From the NCBI RefSeq assembly GCF_056712565.1, contig NZ_CM160072.1: 64,000 nucleotides of DNA; one strand, 5' to 3'. The notes beneath the pieces are model-generated. The model was given only the letters and a program-made list of their open reading frames with translations, did no database searches and was not told the origin of the DNA. Within the stretch, counting starts at the first letter, position 1. Each line of letters starts with the position of its first letter. A program made the position numbers and the translations under genes. Below, one piece after another: positions 29,344 through 61,614 of the stretch.

Positions 29344-29826
29344 ATGATAAAGCACCTGCTAGCACCCCTGATTTTCACCTCGCTAATACTTACTGGCTGC
29401 CAGTCCCCTCAGGGAAAGTTTACTCCTGAGCAAGTCGCCGCTATGCAATCTTATGGATTTACTGAATCCGCCGGCGACTGGTCGCTGGGCTTATCAGATG
29501 CCATTCTGTTTGCAAAAAATGACTACAAATTGCTCCCGGAAAGCCAGCAACAGATCCAAACCATGGCAGCCAAATTGGCCTCGACAGGGCTAACACATGC
29601 CCGTATGGATGGACACACCGACAACTATGGTGAAGACAGTTACAACGAAGTCTTATCATTGAAACGGGCGAATGTCGTGGCCGATGCATGGGCTATGGGT
29701 GGACAAATTCCGCGCAGCAATCTCACCACACAGGGTTTAGGAAAAAAATATCCCATAGCCAGTAACAAGACCGCCCAGGGCCGCGCCGAGAACCGCCGCG
29801 TCGCAGTGGTGATTACAACCCCTTAA
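29344..29826 (+). CDS. yfiB: OmpA-family lipoprotein YfiB
   Basis: 160 aa; lipobox LTGC; OmpA-like C-terminus. Confidence 0.9.
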   Translation: MIKHLLAPLIFTSLILTGCQSPQGKFTPEQVAAMQSYGFTESAGDWSLGLSDAILFAKNDYKLLPESQQQIQTMAAKLASTGLTHARMDGHTDNYGEDSYNEVLSLKRANVVADAWAMGGQIPRSNLTTQGLGKKYPIASNKTAQGRAENRRVAVVITTP

Positions 29827-29998: not shown

Positions 29999-31048
29999 TT
30001 ATGCAACCTCTGCCGCCATATTGTCGCCAACATACAGCGATAACGGATTAAGGGTTACAGCTTGTTCAAGGTGGTCAGGAGCAAAGTGTGCATACTTCAT
30101 TGTTTCTCGAATATTGGCATGCCCGAGAATTTTCTGCAGTACCAGTATATTCCCGCCGTTCATCATAAAATGCGCACCAAAAGTATGACGCAAAACGTGC
30201 GTCTTCTGCCCTTCCGTCAATTCAATATTCGTTAGTTTGAGCATCTTCTTAAACTCCTGATAGCAGGGTTTAAACATTCTGCCTTGACGTACGGACAACT
30301 CGTCGTACAGCCATTTAGGAATAGGAACTGTGCGATTCTTCTTACCTTTGGTTTTGGTGAACGTCAGTTTATATGGAGAAAGTTGAGGGCGGGTCAATCT
30401 CTCCGCTTCCCCCCATCGAGCGCCGGTTGCAAGGCACACCTTAACAATCATGGTGAGGTCTTCTTTGCCGTATTGCTCGCAGGCTCGAAACAGCTCCGGG
30501 AGCTGAGACAAAGTTAGCCAGGACATTTCTTTCTCAGCCTCTTTGAATACTCGGATCCCATCAAGTGGATTGGGTAGGCTCCACTCCCCTAACCGGCGGA
30601 GCTCATTAAACACTGCTTCTAGGTATTGTTGTTCGCGATTGACGGTTATAGGTTTGGCGATCCATTTCGAGGGGTCTTTATGATAACCGTTGTCTATTTC
30701 ACCACGTAATCGACGGTCACGATAATGAGCCCAGTCTTTCGCGGTAAGGCGAGATGCAATCGGGTCACCAAGCCCATTACATACGATTTGAAGCTTTGCT
30801 AACCTCGACTTACTGGCGACTAACGCTTGACCGTGCAAATTGTGCCAAAGCTGAATAATCTCGCTTAAGCGTCGGCGGTCTTCTTTCTTGCCAAGCCACG
30901 GCTTATCTTCACTCTCGCTTTTGGTAAATGCTTCGAATGCCTCGGCCTCACCTTTGGTATTGAATTGCCGACGTATACGCCGCCCTTCTCGACCATTTGG
31001 ATAGAGCTCGCATAACCATTTGCCATTTTTTTGCTTACTTACAGTCAT
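29999..31048 (-). CDS. int: phage integrase (tyrosine recombinase, 186/P2 Int family)
   Basis: 349 aa; MTVSKQKNGKWLCELYPNG...; catalytic region HVLRHTF...LGHANIRETMKYAHF. Confidence 0.9.
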   Translation of the reverse strand: MTVSKQKNGKWLCELYPNGREGRRIRRQFNTKGEAEAFEAFTKSESEDKPWLGKKEDRRRLSEIIQLWHNLHGQALVASKSRLAKLQIVCNGLGDPIASRLTAKDWAHYRDRRLRGEIDNGYHKDPSKWIAKPITVNREQQYLEAVFNELRRLGEWSLPNPLDGIRVFKEAEKEMSWLTLSQLPELFRACEQYGKEDLTMIVKVCLATGARWGEAERLTRPQLSPYKLTFTKTKGKKNRTVPIPKWLYDELSVRQGRMFKPCYQEFKKMLKLTNIELTEGQKTHVLRHTFGAHFMMNGGNILVLQKILGHANIRETMKYAHFAPDHLEQAVTLNPLSLYVGDNMAAEVA

Positions 31049-31070
31049 AATGTCACCGAGGCAACTCTAA

Positions 31071-31409
31071 TTATTCGCAAAGTGCTGTTGCGGCATCCAT
31101 TACAGGATCCAAAGGAATTTTTACACCTGCATACTCTGGACTGTCTTTCCAAACAGCATCAATATTGCTCCCCTCAAGCTTTCCAGACTTTACTCCATCA
31201 ATAGCAAAACCATTTAATGGGTATCGGTCATCAGTTGCTTTGTCGTATACAAAGGCATACTTACCGTTAACGCAAGACACCGTAGCTTTTTCAAAAGTTA
31301 ACGGCCAATCCTCACCAAACTTAGCGCCATCTAAATCCTGTGTTTTTTCAGCGGCTAAGGAGCCAAAAGAAAAGGTAAGAAGCATAGCTAAAAAGAGTTT
31401 ACGTTTCAT
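31071..31409 (-). CDS. small secreted protein of unknown function (cargo gene between int and repressor)
   Basis: Start at MKRKLFLAMLLTFSFGSLAA (signal peptide); two Cys in mature part; overlaps the repressor gene's 3' end by ~10 bp. Confidence 0.6.
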   Translation of the reverse strand: MKRKLFLAMLLTFSFGSLAAEKTQDLDGAKFGEDWPLTFEKATVSCVNGKYAFVYDKATDDRYPLNGFAIDGVKSGKLEGSNIDAVWKDSPEYAGVKIPLDPVMDAATALCE

Positions 31410-31417
31410 AATTTCCC

Positions 31418-32278
31418 TTATACGTGTTTTTCCAATGTGAAAACTACAACCCCGGCAGGCGTAATGTCGGTAATGTTGCATTCAAACTCAGCAGACTTAT
31501 TTGACAACCTGACTTTTCCACCAGGTAAACGAATTACATCAAAAACATCAAGAGCGCCGTCGATATCAATTAACCAGCGACCATTACTTATATTCGAAGC
31601 AGAACAGTCGACAAGCCAAGAGGCAGCTACACCGTCAACAAAAATCAATTCCCCTGAGTTAGAAGGAATCATTGAGGGGTCAGGATGCCACGTTCCTGCA
31701 TCCTTAAGCTCACCAGATTCAAGACGAGATTTTTTAATAGAAAAACCAGATGTGACATCTTCCCTGTTAGCTCGCATTTGCCCCTTGCCTGTTGCTAACC
31801 ATTCCAGTGACGTATCGGTATCAAGAGCGCATGTAACAACAACATCACCAGGGAAAAAATCTCGCCTTACCCATGTGCTAATTGTGCCAGAGGAAATGCC
31901 GAGCAAATCACCGAGCTCCTTTTGCATGGTAAAGCCATACGCATCAAGAATCCTACGCAAAACGGTTTTACCACCATTCGTCATAATCTCGTCATAAAGC
32001 TCTTTGCCTTTTAACTTGCAACTGGCTCGCTCGTGATTTGCATTTGCAAGCTCTCCATTTACAAGCCAATTGATATCAGCTCCCGTGTCAAGACAACACC
32101 TAACTATGACATTGCCAGGTATTGCATCACGCTGAACCCAGCCGCTAACGCTGTGTTTAGCGATACCTAGCAGGTCAGCCAAATCCTTTTGCATCTTGAC
32201 CCCATAGGCTGACATTAAGCGTTCCAATACGCCGTTCGTTGCACTAACACGCCACTGTACATCAAGCTCAGAACTCAT
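31418..32278 (-). CDS. 186 CI-like immunity repressor with tandemly duplicated N-terminal DNA-binding domain
   Basis: 286 aa; two homologous ~60-aa segments (LERLMSAYGVKMQKDLADLLGIAKHSVSGWVQRD... and LRRILDAYGFTMQKELGDLLGISSGTISTWVRRD...); C-terminus resembles 186 CI (GRWLIDIDGA...LPGGKVRL...FEC). Confidence 0.8.
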   Translation of the reverse strand: MSSELDVQWRVSATNGVLERLMSAYGVKMQKDLADLLGIAKHSVSGWVQRDAIPGNVIVRCCLDTGADINWLVNGELANANHERASCKLKGKELYDEIMTNGGKTVLRRILDAYGFTMQKELGDLLGISSGTISTWVRRDFFPGDVVVTCALDTDTSLEWLATGKGQMRANREDVTSGFSIKKSRLESGELKDAGTWHPDPSMIPSNSGELIFVDGVAASWLVDCSASNISNGRWLIDIDGALDVFDVIRLPGGKVRLSNKSAEFECNITDITPAGVVVFTLEKHV

Positions 32279-32546
32279 AAAAACCCCTACAGATAATTTT
32301 ATGGGTGTTTACAGAAAACTTTTTACGATCTATAGTGGCATTCATCGACCAAGATGCACACCACTGCACTACATTTCAAACAACAGGAGATAATGCGATA
32401 TGTCAGATGCAAAATCAATCTCGACGCACGACTCGCAAAACTCACAAAATCAAACTGTGCTGCTAGATCCAACACAGTTTGATGCCATCGTTACCGCCAT
32501 GCTGCCAGCTCTACAGACAATGATTCGCTCCGCTATGTCAGACACG

Positions 32547-32771
32547 ATGACTGTGAAAGACTTCGCCGCTACTCGCGGTGTTAGCGAGCGTCTGGTCTGG
32601 CAATGGCTCGATGAGGGAGTTCTTCTCAAAGCTCCGACCAAAGACTTTTCCAACAAAGAGGAAGCTGCTAAACGAAGCCGAACCCTCGTAAACGTAAAAG
32701 CATGGCGCGATAAGCTGACTCAACAAGCGATTGATTGTCGCTACATCGACCAGCGCACCGCTCTTAACTGA
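32547..32771 (+). CDS. Apl/Cox-like excisionase / switch regulator
   Basis: Divergent from repressor; HTH segment MTVKDFAATRGVSERLVWQWLDEGVLLKAP; start uncertain (ORF opens at 32400). Confidence 0.6.
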   Translation: MTVKDFAATRGVSERLVWQWLDEGVLLKAPTKDFSNKEEAAKRSRTLVNVKAWRDKLTQQAIDCRYIDQRTALN

Positions 32772-32803
32772 ATTTGATTATGCAAGTTAGAGGGAATTTA
32801 ACC

Positions 32804-33313
32804 ATGTTTGATTTTCAGGTTTCCAAACATCCCCACTATGACGAAGCATGCCGCATTTTCGCACAGCGTCACAACATGGCGAAGCTGGCCGAGCGTGCAG
32901 GTATGAACGTTCAAACGTTACGTAACAAGCTCAACCCGGAACAGCCTCACCAGTTCACGCCGTCTGAATTGTGGCTGCTGACTGACCTGACCGAAGACTC
33001 AACCCTCATTGATGGTTTTTTAGCGCAGATTCACTGCCTACCATGCGTGCCGGTTAATGAGTTGGCTAAAGACAAATTGCAGTCTTATGTCATGCGCGCA
33101 ATGCGTGAACTCGGCGAACTGGCGAGCGGCGCGGTATCTGATGAACGTCTGACCATTGCCCGTAAGCACAACATGATTGAAAGCGTTAACTCCGGCATTC
33201 GCATGTTGTCATTGTCGGCTCTGGCGCTGCATGCACGTCTGCAGACTAATCCAGCTATGTCGAGCGTGGTCGATACCATGAGCGGTATTGGCGCATCGTT
33301 TGGTCTGATTTGA
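32804..33313 (+). CDS. CII-like lysogeny-establishment regulator
   Basis: ~169 aa from MFDFQVSKHPHYDEACRIFAQRHNMAKLAERAGMNVQTLRNKL (HTH); position after apl as in 186. Confidence 0.65.
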   Translation: MFDFQVSKHPHYDEACRIFAQRHNMAKLAERAGMNVQTLRNKLNPEQPHQFTPSELWLLTDLTEDSTLIDGFLAQIHCLPCVPVNELAKDKLQSYVMRAMRELGELASGAVSDERLTIARKHNMIESVNSGIRMLSLSALALHARLQTNPAMSSVVDTMSGIGASFGLI

Positions 33314-33314
33314 G

Positions 33315-33521
33315 GTGCGTATGCTGAAAAGTGAACCGTCATTCGCATCTCTGCTCGTTAAGCAAAGCCCCGGCATGCACTACGGCCACGGCTGGATCGC
33401 AGGTAAGGACGGCAAGCGCTGGCACCCGAGCCACTCGCAGGCTGATTTACTGGCTGGCCTCTCTACTCAAAAGCGGGGGGGATCATGGCTATCGAAGCTG
33501 TTTCCGCGACTGTTCCGCTAA
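33315..33521 (+). CDS. hypothetical early-region protein
   Basis: 68-aa ORF in early operon; no recognisable motif. Confidence 0.4.
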   Translation: MRMLKSEPSFASLLVKQSPGMHYGHGWIAGKDGKRWHPSHSQADLLAGLSTQKRGGSWLSKLFPRLFR

Positions 33522-36637: not shown

Positions 36638-36657
36638 TACTGTATAAATATACAGTA
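36638..36657. promoter_or_regulatory. LexA box (SOS operator)
   Basis: TACTGTATAAATATACAGTA = CTGT-N8-ACAG consensus, ~20 bp upstream of the 36677 ORF. Confidence 0.8.
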
Positions 36658-36676
36658 ACCCTATGGGAGGGATTTC

Positions 36677-36859
36677 ATGGTTGGCGAACATTTCAGCCGA
36701 ACGCAGCAAAAGTGGGCTTGTGTGCAATTTATTGCCGAGGTATCTCTGATTGCAAACTGCAAGCCATCAGACTTAAAGCTCGCGCTCACTCTCATTGCAG
36801 ACCTAGCAAACAGCGAAAATAACGAAACCGAAGATGATAATTTTTATAAGGCTGATTAG
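36677..36859 (+). CDS. small SOS-controlled protein, possible Tum-like antirepressor
   Basis: 60 aa; GGAGGG RBS; directly downstream of the LexA box; position equivalent to 186 tum. Confidence 0.4.
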   Translation: MVGEHFSRTQQKWACVQFIAEVSLIANCKPSDLKLALTLIADLANSENNETEDDNFYKAD

Positions 36860-36862
36860 ATT

Positions 36863-37093
36863 ATGAGAATCAATATCACGTTGGATAAAGAGCAAAAATT
36901 AGGGCAACAGATCATTGATGCTTTTCAGAATGAAATAACACATCGAGTACAATGCGTTTTTCCTGCAACAAAAGTTAACGTTAAGAAAGGGTCAATGACT
37001 GGTGTAGAGGCTATCGGATTCGATAAAGAGGCGGACAGAGAAACATTAGGCAGCATATTACAAGAGATTTGGGAAGACGATAGCTGGCGTTAA
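36863..37093 (+). CDS. DinI-family protein
   Basis: 76 aa; MRINITLDK...QEIWEDDSW resembles E. coli DinI (MRIEVTIAK...QETWESADDW). Confidence 0.8.
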   Translation: MRINITLDKEQKLGQQIIDAFQNEITHRVQCVFPATKVNVKKGSMTGVEAIGFDKEADRETLGSILQEIWEDDSWR

Positions 37094-37292: not shown

Positions 37293-37502
37293 ATGCATCG
37301 ACTACCAGGTGAAATACCGCAGCACAAAACTAAAAGCATCAAACTGATGGCCATCGTTCATCGTTTGCAGCAGATAATGGTCAATGAGAATTTGACACCC
37401 GCAGAGCTGGTCGGGTGTGCCGAAATAGTCAGGGATAATTACGGCAAGCTGGATAGCATCAGCAGGTCGAAACAATACGCACCACCACCACGTCGACGAT
37501 AG
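37293..37502 (+). CDS. hypothetical protein
   Basis: 69 aa; GAGGG RBS; flanked by two copies of a ~30-bp repeat. Confidence 0.4.
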   Translation: MHRLPGEIPQHKTKSIKLMAIVHRLQQIMVNENLTPAELVGCAEIVRDNYGKLDSISRSKQYAPPPRRR

Positions 37503-37576: not shown

Positions 37577-38518
37577 TTAATTTATTTTTAATGAATGGTA
37601 ATCTCGTGAGTTGACCGAAGATTTGAGATAACTGCAATCATTAACCGACAGTATTGCCGCTAATAGGCGACATACCAGTGCCTGCATTTGCAGCAATATA
37701 TCGTTACCATATTGACTGTTGTTAACACTTGAGAAACCAAGCGGTTGACCAAAAAAAATAGCCTCATGAAAATTATCATTGCGGATGCCAGAAATGTTTT
37801 TTTTACCTGACACCCATGTGGGGATTGATAACCCATAAATTTTGCACATCCACTTTAATCGCTTGTAATGATTTGGCGGTTTTTTATCAGGAGCCTTGTC
37901 ATGCTCAGCCCACGACAAAGCAAAGCACCCATCAAGTGCCATGTAAAGATACTGGAATTTTTCAAAAGAAAGGTATTGTGGGTTTTGAGATAAGAATAGT
38001 GCATGCACCACTGCCGCAATTCTTTTGGGGGAGTGCGCATCCTTATGTTTGCCATTTATATAATTAAGAGCCAGTTCTATGACTTCTTTTTCAGAGCATC
38101 CAACGAGAATAAAGTCGGTTAACTTAGTGGGCTTGATAGTGGTTGCATCTAAAAAACCAGCGTCAGTGGTTGTCAATCTTATTCCCTTGAAAAAAGAAAG
38201 GCACCACACAATAAAGTTGAGAGTTTCTAACGAGGATGTATTTTTTAATTTTAGTGTGTGCGTTTTGGGCATACTGAATACTCGGTGACTATAAGGCATT
38301 GTGGATATGCCACCATTAAGGTTATATACATCTTGGTTTCCAGGGTATATCCAACCTTTCACAACGTTTTTATCATTATTAACACGCTCCACTTTCTCAT
38401 TGAGACCAGGTAAAGTAAGCAAAGAAAATTGTTCAGTCTCAATGTTAACTTCTACTGGATAGTATCCAAACTCCGACATAATCTCATTGGGTTGCTGTTC
38501 GTCAACTTCACCTTGCAT
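37577..38518 (-). CDS. hypothetical 313-aa protein at the cos-proximal old/tin position
   Basis: Long AT-rich ORF; GGAG RBS; 16-bp perfect palindrome CTCGATAATTATCGAG at 38541-38556 upstream; no motif recognised. Confidence 0.7.
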   Translation of the reverse strand: MQGEVDEQQPNEIMSEFGYYPVEVNIETEQFSLLTLPGLNEKVERVNNDKNVVKGWIYPGNQDVYNLNGGISTMPYSHRVFSMPKTHTLKLKNTSSLETLNFIVWCLSFFKGIRLTTTDAGFLDATTIKPTKLTDFILVGCSEKEVIELALNYINGKHKDAHSPKRIAAVVHALFLSQNPQYLSFEKFQYLYMALDGCFALSWAEHDKAPDKKPPNHYKRLKWMCKIYGLSIPTWVSGKKNISGIRNDNFHEAIFFGQPLGFSSVNNSQYGNDILLQMQALVCRLLAAILSVNDCSYLKSSVNSRDYHSLKIN

Positions 38519-60825: not shown

Positions 60826-60900
60826 AAAAGCAAATCATAACTTGCAAATGCAATTTTAGAGTTTATTATTCCCTCAAACGCGCCAGCAGGGGGAAAAATT

Positions 60901-61119
60901 ATGATGCACTGCCCGTTATGCCAAAACGCCGCACATGCTCGTACTAGCCGGTACCTTAGCACCGAAACGAAAGAACGTTATCACCAATGCCAGAACATAA
61001 ATTGCGGATGTACATTTATCACTTTTGAGACGCTATCAAGATTCATTGTGAAACCGGGCACTGTTGATCCTGCTCCGCCACATCCCATCAGAAACCAACA
61101 ACAGCAACTTTGGCTTTGA
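60901..61119 (+). CDS. ogr: Ogr/Delta-type zinc-finger late transcription activator
   Basis: 72 aa; CPLCQ...-22 aa-...CQNINC zinc finger; terminator hairpin CCTGCTTCGGCAGG+T-run follows. Confidence 0.85.
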   Translation: MMHCPLCQNAAHARTSRYLSTETKERYHQCQNINCGCTFITFETLSRFIVKPGTVDPAPPHPIRNQQQQLWL

Positions 61120-61263
61120 ACCTGCTTCGGCAGGTTTTTTTATATCTGTCGCCATCGCGCCAATCTCTGCCGCCAATTTGCCGCCACCACCAATGAAAAA
61201 GGGGTTAGCAATTCGCTAACCCCTTGTTTCATAACACGCTTTGGATGTAGCGCGAAGACGTTA

Positions 61264-61614
<351 letters not shown>

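What the first reader, a model, noticed from the sequence alone, without database searches (positions are those of the whole stretch)
31418..32278. Immunity repressor with an internally duplicated DNA-binding domain
The 286-aa CI-like repressor has two homologous ~60-aa N-terminal segments in tandem, followed by a 186 CI-like C-terminal domain. A covalently linked double HTH could change operator specificity and immunity class compared with single-domain 186 CI.
Basis: seen in the sequence. Interest (0 to 1): 0.5.

Follow-up and report, generated by a model that had tools for sequence, protein, structure and literature searches.

The report
Two-headed PSP3-type phage immunity repressor
This is the immunity repressor of a PSP3-like prophage in E. 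coli, a relative of the phage 186 CI protein that carries two DNA-binding heads instead of one; comparison of about 80 related phages suggests that one head sets which phages are shut out and the other, almost invariant, reads three conserved control sites.

Summary
The ORF at 31418-32278 (-) encodes a 286-aa protein with two Phage_CI_repr HTH domains, D1 at residues 16-76 and D2 at 106-169. They are 50% identical to each other (E 4e-25) and are followed by a 186-type CI C-terminal domain.

It is not an artefact and not a new protein. It is 98% identical to Salmonella phage PSP3 CI, and the architecture occurs in more than 110 protein clusters across Enterobacterales. The one paper found that discusses PSP3 CI's extra length calls it a longer C-terminal domain.

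What is new is comparative:
- D2 is the counterpart of the single 186 head. It is nearly invariant (dN/dS 0.04 at saturated dS).
- D1 is the added copy. It is functional (dN/dS 0.15) but comes in at least six helix types, each travelling with its own version of the early lytic promoter (pR) operator block.
- A conserved palindrome, CTTGCA-WW-TGCAAG, sits at the three positions where 186 has its FL, FR and pB repressor sites, whatever the D1 type. It is also the pR operator of single-headed relatives with a D2-like head.

Best reading (inferred, not shown): D1 reads the immunity-specific pR operators, and D2 reads the conserved sites and may be the target of the invariant TumA antirepressor. 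This is a new variant of a known kind, of moderate interest.

The parts
31418..32278 (-). cI: 286-aa PSP3-type immunity repressor (D1 - linker - D2 - linker - C-terminal domain); the stop codon is 31418-31420
   Evidence: ORF; Pfam architecture; 98.3% identical to PSP3 cI and 100% to vB_EcoM-613R3 cI
32051..32233 (-). D1 (residues 16-76): the added N-terminal HTH domain, with recognition helix IAKHSVSGWVQRD (type A); variable between immunity types
   Evidence: PF07022 E 4.5e-22. D1s form their own clade. Helix types are listed. dN/dS 0.15
31964..32050 (-). D1-D2 linker (residues 77-105): disordered at 78-86, then a helix at 92-100 that leads into D2. Met99 aligns with the start codon of single-headed relatives
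   Evidence: AF2 model; L008 and P0133/P0135 starts
31772..31963 (-). D2 (residues 106-169): the counterpart of the single 186 N-terminal domain, with recognition helix ISSGTISTWVRR; nearly invariant across the family
   Evidence: PF07022 E 2.1e-27. 2FJR aligns from residue 105. 79% identical to the single head of P0133. Mean identity 0.90 and dN/dS 0.036 at dS 1.75
31421..31741 (-). 186-type CI C-terminal (oligomerisation) domain, residues 180-286
   Evidence: PF16452 E 3e-20; Foldseek hit to 2fkd_A with TM 0.89 and rmsd 1.6 A
32037..32050 (.). FL-like palindrome TTTGCATTTGCAAG inside cI, in the DNA that encodes the D1-D2 linker (229 nt after the ATG)
   Evidence: One of only two matches with <=1 mismatch in 64 kb, against 0.08 expected. 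Present in 67 of 74 non-redundant loci whatever the D1 type. Codons L77-A78-N79-A80 are fixed at CTT/GCA/AAT/GCA in 100/98/100/90% of sequences, against a gene mean of 63%. The motif is kept in another reading frame where the amino acids differ. 186 has its FL site at the corresponding position
32288..32302 (+). Candidate pR operator O2: TACAGATAATTTTAT, upstream of the pR -35
   Evidence: Direct repeat D4. 11/14 match at 22-bp spacing, reached by 4 of 300 shuffles. Lies in the block that varies with D1 type
32310..32324 (+). Candidate pR operator O1: TACAGAAAACTTTTT, overlapping the pR -35 and spacer
   Evidence: Conserved in the diverged Pantoea-like lineage that keeps the same D1 helix
32308..32336 (+). 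Putative early lytic promoter pR (TTTACA - 17 nt - TATAGT), reading into the apl analogue and cII
   Evidence: The only promoter-like match in 31000-33400. The promoter hexamers are recognisable at this position in the related loci
32400..32771 (+). apl/cox analogue (123 aa), first gene of the lytic operon; does not vary with D1 type (near-identical between the window, Midge and the type C locus; diverged in PSP3 and SW9)
   Evidence: phrog_3554, with a weak Cox-like hit; conservation; called a singleton in PMC3448106
32772..32787 (.). FR-like site ATTTGATTATGCAAGT (ACTTG-N6-CAAAT on the other strand) between the apl analogue's stop and the cII ribosome-binding site
   Evidence: Present in 59 of 74 non-redundant loci. 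Same position as 186 FR
32804..33313 (+). cII-like activator of lysogeny establishment
   Evidence: phrog_101; PSP3 annotation
60841..60854 (.). pB-like palindrome CTTGCAAATGCAAT overlapping the -35 of the late-activator (pag/ogr) promoter
   Evidence: Promoter-like site TTGCAA-16-TATTAT at 60842-60869. The same site lies upstream of pag/ogr in PSP3, Midge and SW9. 186 CI represses pB through sites at the same position
60901..61119 (+). pag/ogr-type zinc-finger late-gene activator
   Evidence: ORF; phrog_603
36638..36657 (.). Perfect LexA box TACTGTATATTTATACAGTA
   Evidence: 0 mismatches; 0.22 expected at <=3 mismatches
36677..36859 (+). tumA: 60-aa SOS-controlled antirepressor candidate, followed by a dinI homologue at 36863-37093
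   Evidence: Annotated TumA in PSP3. At least 98.3% identical in exactly the 10 phage records that carry a PSP3-type CI, whatever the D1 type. PSP3's split tum is described in PMC3121763
29999..31048 (-). Integrase, last gene of the lysogenic operon (cI - DUF2511 lipoprotein gene, listed ORF 31071-31481 - int)

Best explanation
The ORF is the functional immunity repressor of a PSP3-like (Eganvirus) prophage. It is a phage 186-type CI, with an HTH head and a wheel-type C-terminal domain, that has gained a second, paralogous HTH head at its N-terminus. Both heads are in use. Inferred mechanism: D1, the added head, reads the immunity-specific operators that overlap the -35 and spacer of the early lytic promoter pR. 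It is exchanged between phages together with those operators as one ~350-bp cassette. D2, the ancestral head, is nearly invariant. It reads a conserved palindrome (CTTGCA-WW-TGCAAG) at three sites that match the 186 FL, FR and pB sites: inside cI, at the apl/cII junction, and on the late-activator promoter. D2, or D2 plus the C-terminal domain, is also the likely target of the invariant LexA-controlled antirepressor TumA. Phage 186 recognises two operator classes with one HTH; here the two classes appear to be divided between two HTH domains. Shown by computation: the architecture, selection on both domains, linkage of D1 type to the pR block, and conservation and positions of the palindrome. 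Inferred: which head binds which site, wheel formation, and the TumA target.
For: Architecture and identity. D2 is the counterpart of the 186 head: single-headed family members align to residues ~100-283, D2 clusters with single heads while the D1s form their own clade, and D2 is 79% identical to the P0133 head. Both heads are constrained: dN/dS is 0.15 for D1 and 0.036 for D2, with dS about 1.7 in both, so the invariance of D2 is not recent shared ancestry. D1 and pR linkage: nine D1 helix variants in 74 non-redundant loci, each with its own pR spacer, -35 and upstream block, and no discordant combination in the table. The variable block runs from about -57 to +286 relative to the ATG. The A and A' lineages, 64% identical overall, keep both the D1 helix and operator O1. 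F-like D1 helices in two separate lineages (L087, L096) both sit next to TCGCA-A(2-3)-TGCGA palindromes. Repeats 18-22 bp apart occur at pR in types A to D (2-5 of 300 shuffles reach each score), matching the two-turn spacing of 186 operators (PMC3675496). Conserved palindrome: 2 matches against 0.08 expected in the window. In PSP3 and SW9 the only matches with <=2 mismatches are at the FL, FR and pB positions; Midge has these three plus one further 2-mismatch match near the cI start. There is synonymous-codon fixation, and the motif is preserved out of frame. 186 has annotated sites at the same three positions. There are none in a Fels-2-type locus and only one unrelated 2-mismatch match in the 186 locus. 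D2 and the palindrome: single-headed CIs from three lineages with the helix SSGTISTW(V/I)RR carry CTTGCATTTGCAAG, or a one-arm variant, in the spacer of their pR-like promoter. TumA: LexA box plus tumA/dinI, invariant across D1 types and co-occurring 10 of 10 with PSP3-type CI.
Against: No binding experiment exists for any PSP3-type CI, so the assignment of heads to sites rests on correlation. The pR repeats have modest statistical support in an AT-rich promoter. They are weak in types A', D', E and F, and their symmetry is not uniform: apparently direct repeats in type A, palindromes in C, E and F. The FR-like site is degenerate in its inner positions. More distant single-headed relatives with a similar helix (P0139, P0141) lack the palindrome. 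The invariance of D2 could be explained by TumA or protein contacts alone. AF2 gives no information on inter-domain geometry (pTM 0.40).
Confidence: 0.55

Rival explanations
1. Tandem reader: D1 and D2 of one chain bind side by side on every operator, each reading one half-site. Operators would then be asymmetric composites of a conserved D2 half and a type-specific D1 half.
For: The type A and type D pR repeats look like direct, asymmetric units. A short element (ATCG) in the pR spacer is conserved across D1 types, next to the variable part. The ~25-residue linker could span adjacent half-sites.
Against: The conserved FL and pB sites are symmetric palindromes with no type-specific half. The pR operators of types C, E and F and of P0126 are themselves palindromic with two equivalent arms. 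Single-headed relatives use the same palindrome with a D2-like head alone. No D2-type half-site (TTGCA) recurs in the type A repeats.
Confidence: 0.2
2. D2 no longer reads specific DNA. It is conserved because it is the docking surface for the TumA antirepressor, or a structural hub for the wheel. D1 would be the only sequence reader, and the conserved palindromes would be bound by another factor or serve another role such as a recombination joint.
For: TumA is invariant across D1 types and occurs only with PSP3-type CI. A dN/dS of 0.036 is lower than usual for a repressor head. The FL-like site lies exactly at the right-hand boundary of the exchangeable cassette.
Against: The D2 recognition helix is the same as in single-headed CIs, whose only HTH must bind DNA and whose pR carries the palindrome. 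The palindromes sit at exactly the three places where 186 CI is known to bind. A variable D1 cannot explain invariant sites.
Confidence: 0.15
3. The duplication is an artefact or a decaying relic: a misassembled repeat, or a D1 that is a neutral passenger on its way to loss.
For: One metagenomic contig (L008) has the gene split by two in-frame stops into a 69-aa D1 ORF and a 189-aa D2-plus-C-terminal-domain ORF. A single-headed lineage (Rahnella, Yersinia) is closely related to the D2-plus-C-terminal part.
Against: The copies are only 50% identical. The full-length gene is intact in more than 110 protein clusters from many genera and in cultured phages. D1 has dN/dS 0.15, with invariant HTH positions R20, Y25, W47 and R50.
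Confidence: 0.03

Closest known systems
Salmonella phage PSP3 CI (NP_958086; AY135486 / NC_005340), also SEN1 and vB_EcoM-613R3 cI
   Same: Essentially the same protein at 98.3%, 97.6% and 100% identity, with the same gene order (int - DUF2511 gene - cI / apl analogue - cII) and the same tumA.
   Different: Nothing of substance. The protein is annotated only as 'CI' or 'transcriptional repressor'. The one paper found that discusses its length (PMC3448106) says PsP3 has 'a longer C-terminal domain' than 186 CI and does not mention a second HTH.
Coliphage 186 CI (PDB 2FJR, 2FKD): a 14-mer wheel repressor with pR, FL, FR and pB sites
   Same: Same Pfam families, and the same C-terminal fold (TM 0.89). 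The switch layout is the same, with pR operators about two helical turns apart and flanking sites inside cI, at apl/cII and at the late-activator promoter. Induction is also through a LexA-controlled antirepressor rather than self-cleavage.
   Different: 186 CI has one HTH, which recognises two distinct operator classes (Shearwin et al. 2002, cited in PMC3675496). This protein has two HTH domains. Identity is only ~30%. The flanking-site consensus is CTTGCA-WW-TGCAAG instead of ATTCAC-N5-GTGAAT. Only two clear pR repeats are seen, not three. The Apl and Tum N-terminal sequences are unrelated.
Fels-2-type CI with two heads (for example Klebsiella phage ST437-OXA245phi4.2 CI, 311 aa) and remote double-head groups (P0184/P0196/P0198, P0227, P0236, P0238)
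   Same: Two PF07022 domains in tandem before a Phage_CI_C domain.
   Different: These are separate duplications. Their D1 and D2 are closer to each other (56-64%) than to either PSP3-type head (29-48%). The two recognition helices are nearly identical to each other, the linker is about 45 residues, and the locus has no CTTGCA palindromes.
Lambda-186 hybrid repressor (PDB 7JVT)
   Same: Shows that a foreign DNA-binding head can be combined with the 186 C-terminal domain in one chain. This is the same modular logic as a swappable D1.
   Different: It is an engineered replacement of the head, not a natural addition of a second one.
Single-headed CIs of Rahnella, Yersinia and Chimaeribacter prophages (P0133, P0349, P0318)
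   Same: The head is 79% identical to D2 with the same recognition helix. The same palindrome is used, here in the pR spacer. The C-terminal domain is ~50% identical.
   Different: There is no D1, and the palindrome is the pR operator itself rather than a flanking site.

Membership tests
Phage 186-type CI immunity repressor | N-terminal HTH domain of the Phage_CI_repr family (PF07022) | tested here: met
   Two hits, E 4.5e-22 and 2.1e-27; 2FJR aligns to residues 105-279 with E 1e-21
Phage 186-type CI immunity repressor | C-terminal domain of the Phage_CI_C family (PF16452) with the 2FKD beta fold | tested here: met
   PF16452 E 3e-20; AF2 C-terminal domain pLDDT above 90, and Foldseek to 2fkd_A gives TM 0.89 and rmsd 1.6 A
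Phage 186-type CI immunity repressor | One DNA-binding domain per chain (the ~190-aa architecture) | tested here: not met
   286 aa with two heads. Most family representatives are ~190 aa and align to residues 100-283 only
Phage 186-type CI immunity repressor | [quoted passage not shown] | tested here: met
   Gene order in the window and in PSP3
Phage 186-type CI immunity repressor | Operators about two helical turns apart at pR, plus distal sites inside cI, at apl/cII and at the late-activator promoter | tested here: inconclusive
   There are two repeats 22 bp apart over the pR -35. Conserved palindromes lie at the three corresponding positions. All of this is sequence inference with no binding data, and no third pR repeat was found
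Phage 186-type CI immunity repressor | Assembly into a wheel of seven dimers | not testable with these tools
   Only a monomer model was possible. The C-terminal fold is conserved, but the interface was not assessed
Phage 186-type CI immunity repressor | Induction by a LexA-controlled antirepressor (Tum) rather than RecA-stimulated self-cleavage | tested here: inconclusive
   A perfect LexA box lies in front of tumA-dinI. PSP3 TumA is reported as the antirepressor only through a personal communication cited in PMC3121763. Its interaction with this CI was not tested
Covalently linked tandem HTH reader (one chain reads both half-sites of one operator) | Operators made of two different adjacent half-sites, one for each head, at a fixed short spacing | tested here: not met
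   The conserved sites are symmetric palindromes with no type-specific half, and several pR operators are symmetric in themselves. Only the type A and D repeats look asymmetric
Covalently linked tandem HTH reader (one chain reads both half-sites of one operator) | A fixed packing of the two heads that places the recognition helices about 34 A apart | tested here: inconclusive
   The AF2 monomer has pTM 0.40 and a disordered linker at 78-86, so there is no confident inter-domain geometry

The most novel reading that the evidence does not exclude
A wheel-forming phage repressor has split the two DNA-recognition jobs that 186 CI does with one HTH between two paralogous heads. The outer head (D1), together with about 60 bp of pR operators, forms a small exchangeable immunity cassette. 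Its right-hand joint is itself a conserved operator inside the gene. The inner head (D2) is frozen, because it serves the shared FL, FR and late-promoter sites and the shared SOS antirepressor. This would let immunity diversify without touching looping, late-gene control or induction. The repeated independent duplications of this head in other CI lineages suggest that the solution recurs.
Probability: 0.4. Interest if true: 0.65.

Novelty: new variant of a known kind. Interest (0 to 1): 0.5.

Why it matters
Phage 186 CI is one of the best-studied alternative genetic switches. How a single HTH recognises two unrelated operator classes, and how wheel positions are shared between pR, pL, FL and FR, are still discussed. 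A natural relative that appears to give each operator class its own head offers a direct way to separate those functions genetically.

It would also explain how heteroimmune P2/186-like phages can arise by swapping a ~350-bp cassette while keeping the same antirepressor, late-gene control and oligomerisation. The cassette could serve as a source of orthogonal repressor-operator pairs for synthetic circuits.

In practical terms, PSP3-type cI genes are currently annotated without any note of the second head. The one published comparison found here misread the extra length.

Tried and rejected
1. Assembly or duplication artefact: rejected. The copies are 50% identical, the gene is intact in hundreds of genomes, and both heads are under purifying selection.

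2. D2 conserved only because of recent recombination: rejected. Synonymous divergence in D2 (dS 1.75) is as high as in D1.

3. D2-type palindromes in more distant single-headed relatives (P0139, P0141): none found, so these loci neither support nor refute the assignment.

4. Composite operators (a conserved ATCG or GCAAA-like half plus a type-specific half): the pattern is too weak, and the element sits at a fixed place in the promoter spacer. I kept it only as part of the tandem-reader rival.

5. A third pR operator one or two turns further on, as in 186: no convincing copy at 32266-32280 or 32332-32346 (read).

6. The FL-like site as an internal promoter for a short D2-plus-C-terminal-domain isoform starting at Met99: there is a TTGCAA -35-like hexamer but no -10 at the right distance, and no clear Shine-Dalgarno sequence. 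Not excluded, not supported.

7. AF2 inter-domain geometry: uninformative (pTM 0.40).

8. Literature: searches on PSP3, 186, repressor and PF07022 found no description of the tandem head. Subscription-only papers, such as the original PSP3 and 186 CI papers, could not be read.

9. PADLOC on neighbouring cargo ORFs: no hits.
Full report
**1.

The ORF at 31418..32278 on the minus strand encodes 286 aa. BLASTP of the first 87 residues against the next 96 gives 50% identity over 74 columns, E = 4e-25. Pfam finds Phage_CI_repr (PF07022) twice: residues 16-76 (E 4.5e-22) and 106-169 (E 2.1e-27). Phage_CI_C (PF16452) follows at 180-274 (E 3e-20). I call the two heads D1 and D2.

The solved phage 186 CI (2FJR) aligns only to residues 105-279, that is D2 plus the C-terminal domain. 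An AlphaFold2 model built on 46 homologues has mean pLDDT 80.5. It shows three folded units (D1 17-74; a helix at 92-100 running into D2 102-163; a beta domain 181-283) joined by disordered stretches at 78-86 and 171-177. Its pTM of 0.40 means the relative position of the units is not predicted. The C-terminal domain superposes on the 186 CI C-terminal domain 2FKD with TM 0.89 and rmsd 1.6 A.

**2. It is a known, common protein and not an artefact**

The protein is 100% identical to cI of Escherichia phage vB_EcoM-613R3, 98.3% to Salmonella phage PSP3 cI and 97.6% to SEN1 cI. It is 73-77% identical to the cI of Midge, RCIP0057, SW9 and SI22.

- A 983-base query (the gene plus the cI-apl intergenic region) matches 67 of 5426 complete E. 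coli chromosomes.
- More than 110 clusters at 90% identity carry the same 276-290-aa architecture. They come from Klebsiella, Enterobacter, Salmonella, Citrobacter, Cronobacter, Pantoea, Brenneria and others.
- At 50% clustering there are about ten PSP3-type two-headed clusters. Most family members are ~190 aa and align to residues 100-283.

The neighbourhood is that of PSP3: int, a DUF2511 lipoprotein gene, cI, then divergently an apl/cox analogue, cII, fil and the replication gene.

In the literature I could search, the only comment on the extra length of PSP3 CI is that it has 'a longer C-terminal domain' than 186 CI (PMC3448106). No paper mentioning a second HTH was found.

**3. Which head is the original**

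In a neighbour-joining tree of 97 head domains, the PSP3-type D2s cluster with the heads of single-headed CIs. The D1s form their own clade. D2 is 79% identical to the head of the single-headed CI P0133, 66% to the D2 of the most distant two-headed member, and 50% to its own D1. D1 is therefore the added copy.

Two-headed CIs of the Fels-2 type and several remote groups have D1 and D2 closer to each other than to any PSP3-type head (for example 56-64% against 29-48%). The head has thus been duplicated independently at least three times in this family. The tree is based on ~62 residues and is only indicative; the identity matrix supports the same conclusion.

**4. The two heads evolve very differently**

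In an alignment of 46 PSP3-type proteins (40-90% identical to the query), the D2 recognition helix region ISSGTISTWVRRDFFPGDVVV is almost invariant. The corresponding D1 region comes in distinct types:

| Type | D1 recognition helix | Example |
|---|---|---|
| A | IAKHSVSGWVQRD | this window, PSP3 |
| B | IHANNVSSWLARN | SW9 |
| C | IYANNISSWLARD | L034 |
| D | VPSNSVSTWVQRN | Midge |
| E | IAKSNVAGWLQRD | L084 |
| F | VPANNISSWIQRD | L087 |

Values over 71 unique coding sequences:

| Region | Mean aa identity | dN/dS |
|---|---|---|
| D1 | 0.63 | 0.15 |
| D2 | 0.90 | 0.036 |
| C-terminal domain | 0.68 | 0.12 |

dS is about 1.7 in all three regions. Both heads are therefore functional. The constancy of D2 reflects protein-level constraint, not recent common descent.

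**5. D1 travels with the pR operators**

I fetched 80 related viral contigs and compared the DNA upstream of cI. The apl analogue gene does not track D1 type. It is near-identical between the window, Midge and a type C locus, but diverged in PSP3, which shares the window's D1 type, and in SW9. The stretch from the apl start to the pR -10 region is shared by most of the loci.

The block that changes with D1 type runs from the pR spacer through the -35 and upstream DNA into the D1 coding region. That is about -57 to +286 relative to the cI ATG. Across 74 non-redundant loci and nine D1 helix variants, every helix type has its own version of this block, with no mixed combination in the table.

Two further observations support the link:

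- The Pantoea-like lineage is only 64% identical overall, but it has kept the type A helix and also the promoter-proximal repeat (AAAARTTWYCTGTAAA).
- F-like helices in two separate lineages (L087, L096) both sit next to TCGCA-A(2-3)-TGCGA palindromes.

In this window the candidate operators are TACAGATAATTTTAT (32288-32302) and TACAGAAAACTTTTT (32310-32324). They lie 22 bp apart and overlap the -35 of the only promoter-like site in the region, TTTACA-17-TATAGT at 32308-32336.

Comparable repeat pairs 18-22 bp apart occur in types B, C and D. For each of types A to D, 2-5 of 300 shuffles reach the observed score; support is weak in the other types. Two-turn spacing is what 186 CI uses at pR (PMC3675496).

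**6. A conserved palindrome at the three places where 186 CI has its other sites**

The motif CTTGCA-WW-TGCAAG with at most one mismatch occurs twice in the 64-kb window, against 0.08 expected; 0 of 100 shuffles give two matches.

*Site 1, FL-like (32037-32050).* It lies inside cI, in the DNA that encodes the D1-D2 linker, 229 nt after the ATG.

- It is present in 67 of 74 non-redundant loci, whatever the D1 type.
- The four codons that spell it (L77 A78 N79 A80) are CTT/GCA/AAT/GCA in 100%, 98%, 100% and 90% of sequences that have those residues. The gene-wide mean for the commonest codon is 63%, and other conserved leucines use five or six codons.
- In type D phages the peptide is different (SLHLQ), but the DNA motif is kept in another register.

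This is a constraint on the DNA, not on the protein.

*Site 2, pB-like (60841-60854).* It overlaps the -35 of a promoter-like site (TTGCAA-16-TATTAT) just upstream of the pag/ogr late activator at 60901-61119.

*Site 3, FR-like (32772-32787).* This weaker version, ACTTG-N6-CAAAT, lies between the apl analogue's stop and the cII ribosome-binding site. It is found in 59 of 74 loci.

In PSP3 and SW9 these three are the only matches with up to two mismatches in 5.8-8.9 kb; Midge has one further 2-mismatch match near the cI start. These phages represent three different D1 types.

The 186 GenBank record annotates CI sites at exactly these positions: FL inside cI, FR at apl/cII, and two sites on pB. 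All are of the ATTCAC-N5-GTGAAT kind and differ from the pR sites. A Fels-2-type locus has no match to the PSP3-type motif. The 186 locus has only one 2-mismatch match, at an unrelated place.

**7. Linking the palindrome to D2**

- The palindrome is invariant across D1 types, as D2 is.
- Single-headed CIs carry the D2-type helix (SSGTISTWVRR or SSGTISTWIRR): P0133 from a Rahnella-type prophage, P0349 from Yersinia and P0318 from Chimaeribacter. Their only HTH must be the operator reader. Each has AACTTGCATTTGCAAGTT, or a version with one degenerate arm, about 53 nt upstream of cI. There it fills the 17-bp spacer of a TTGACA...TAGATT promoter that points away from cI.

This is correlation from three lineages, not proof. 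More distant single-headed relatives (P0139, P0141) do not show the motif.

**8. Induction**

A perfect LexA box (36638-36657) precedes a 60-aa ORF and a dinI homologue. The 60-aa protein is annotated TumA in PSP3. PSP3 is reported to have the 186 tum gene split into an antirepressor gene and a dinI gene (PMC3121763).

TumA is at least 98.3% identical in ten phage records, and these are exactly the ten that carry a PSP3-type CI. They cover D1 types A, B and D. If TumA is the antirepressor, it must recognise a part of CI that does not vary, meaning D2 or the C-terminal domain. This offers a second, compatible reason for the constancy of D2.

**9. Most likely mechanism**

The protein is a 186-type CI to which a second head has been added. 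D1 reads the immunity-specific operators over pR. D2 reads the conserved palindromes at the FL-like, FR-like and late-promoter positions, and probably also carries the TumA contact.

Phage 186 does both recognition jobs with one HTH (Shearwin, Dodd and Egan 2002, cited). Here the jobs seem to be split. A plausible history has three steps:

- A single-headed ancestor used the palindrome at pR and at the distal sites.
- The head was duplicated.
- The outer copy and the pR operators then diversified together as an exchangeable cassette, bounded on one side by the pR -10 region and on the other by the FL-like site.

Shown by computation: the architecture, the selection, the linkage, and the conservation and placement of the sites. 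Inferred: who binds what, wheel formation, looping, and the TumA target.

**10. Rivals**

It does not fit the symmetric conserved sites, the symmetric pR operators of other types, or the single-headed relatives.
- *D2 as protein-docking domain only.* This fits the TumA data. It does not explain the shared helix with single-headed CIs or the placement of the palindromes.
- *Artefact or decaying D1.* This is excluded. One metagenomic contig (L008) does carry the gene split by two in-frame stops into a D1 ORF and a D2-plus-C-terminal-domain ORF, 286 codons in all. That shows the two parts can be separated. Whether that version works is unknown.

**11. Verdict**

The object is a known protein with an unreported architecture and a plausible, testable division of labour. 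I file it as a new variant of a known kind, the 186-type CI, with moderate interest.

Noticed in passing
window 36638-37093: A perfect LexA box (TACTGTATATTTATACAGTA) lies directly upstream of a 60-aa tumA and a 76-aa dinI homologue. TumA is at least 98.3% identical in exactly the ten phage records that carry a PSP3-type two-headed CI, and it has no detectable tblastn match in any other phage record, 186 included.
   Followed up: partly
window 31071-31481 (-); L008 3593-4960; L089 3580-5891; L091 2837-4904; L092 3988-5827: The slot just downstream of cI holds a DUF2511/YebY-like lipoprotein gene here and in PSP3 (where int follows). In relatives it holds defence-like cargo instead: SIR2_2; GmrSD_N plus an SMC/AAA_15 ATPase; AAA_15 plus DUF4435; AAA_21 plus DUF4276. 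It looks like a cargo hotspot.
   Followed up: no
L008 2713-3570: A split version of the two-headed cI: a 69-aa D1 ORF, two in-frame stops in a degenerate linker, then a 189-aa D2-plus-C-terminal-domain ORF (P0135) that starts at the Met corresponding to Met99 of the window protein. The whole is 286 codons. It could be a pseudogene or a natural two-gene form.
   Followed up: partly
window 32400-32771 (+): The apl/cox analogue is 123 aa (phrog_3554, with only a weak Cox-like HTH hit). It was called a singleton without recognisable domains in PMC3448106. It is near-identical in phages with different D1 types (Midge, a type C locus) yet diverged in PSP3, which has the same D1 type as the window, so its binding sites probably lie in the segment between pR and its start codon that is shared by most of the loci (GTGCA-N5-GTGCA at about 32350-32370).
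   Followed up: no
window 32013-32024: A second TTGCAA-centred element (AACTTGCAACTG) lies 25 bp from the FL-like palindrome inside cI. It recalls the cryptic FL' site proposed next to FL in 186 (PMC3675496). In the listing it is present in type A loci only.
   Followed up: no
L004 (Klebsiella phage ST437-OXA245phi4.2 cI) and proteins P0137, P0184, P0196, P0198, P0227, P0236, P0238: These are independent duplications of the CI head in other lineages. In the Fels-2 type the two recognition helices are almost identical to each other (SQSTMANRYARD and SKSTLANRYMRD), so that double head probably works differently from the PSP3 type. A 525-aa relative (P0214) gave six matched stretches.
   Followed up: partly
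window 37577-38518 (-) and 37293-37502 (+): A 313-aa ORF (phrog_5937, unknown function, no PADLOC hit) and a 69-aa ORF (phrog_11386) sit just beyond tumA-dinI. They are probably accessory cargo near the end of the early region.
   Followed up: partly
window 29344-29826 and 61120-61260: The prophage is integrated next to a yfiB-like lipoprotein gene on the left. On the right it ends shortly after pag, near a terminator-like hairpin and a ribosomal protein L19-like gene (61264-61611). The attachment sites were not mapped.
   Followed up: no
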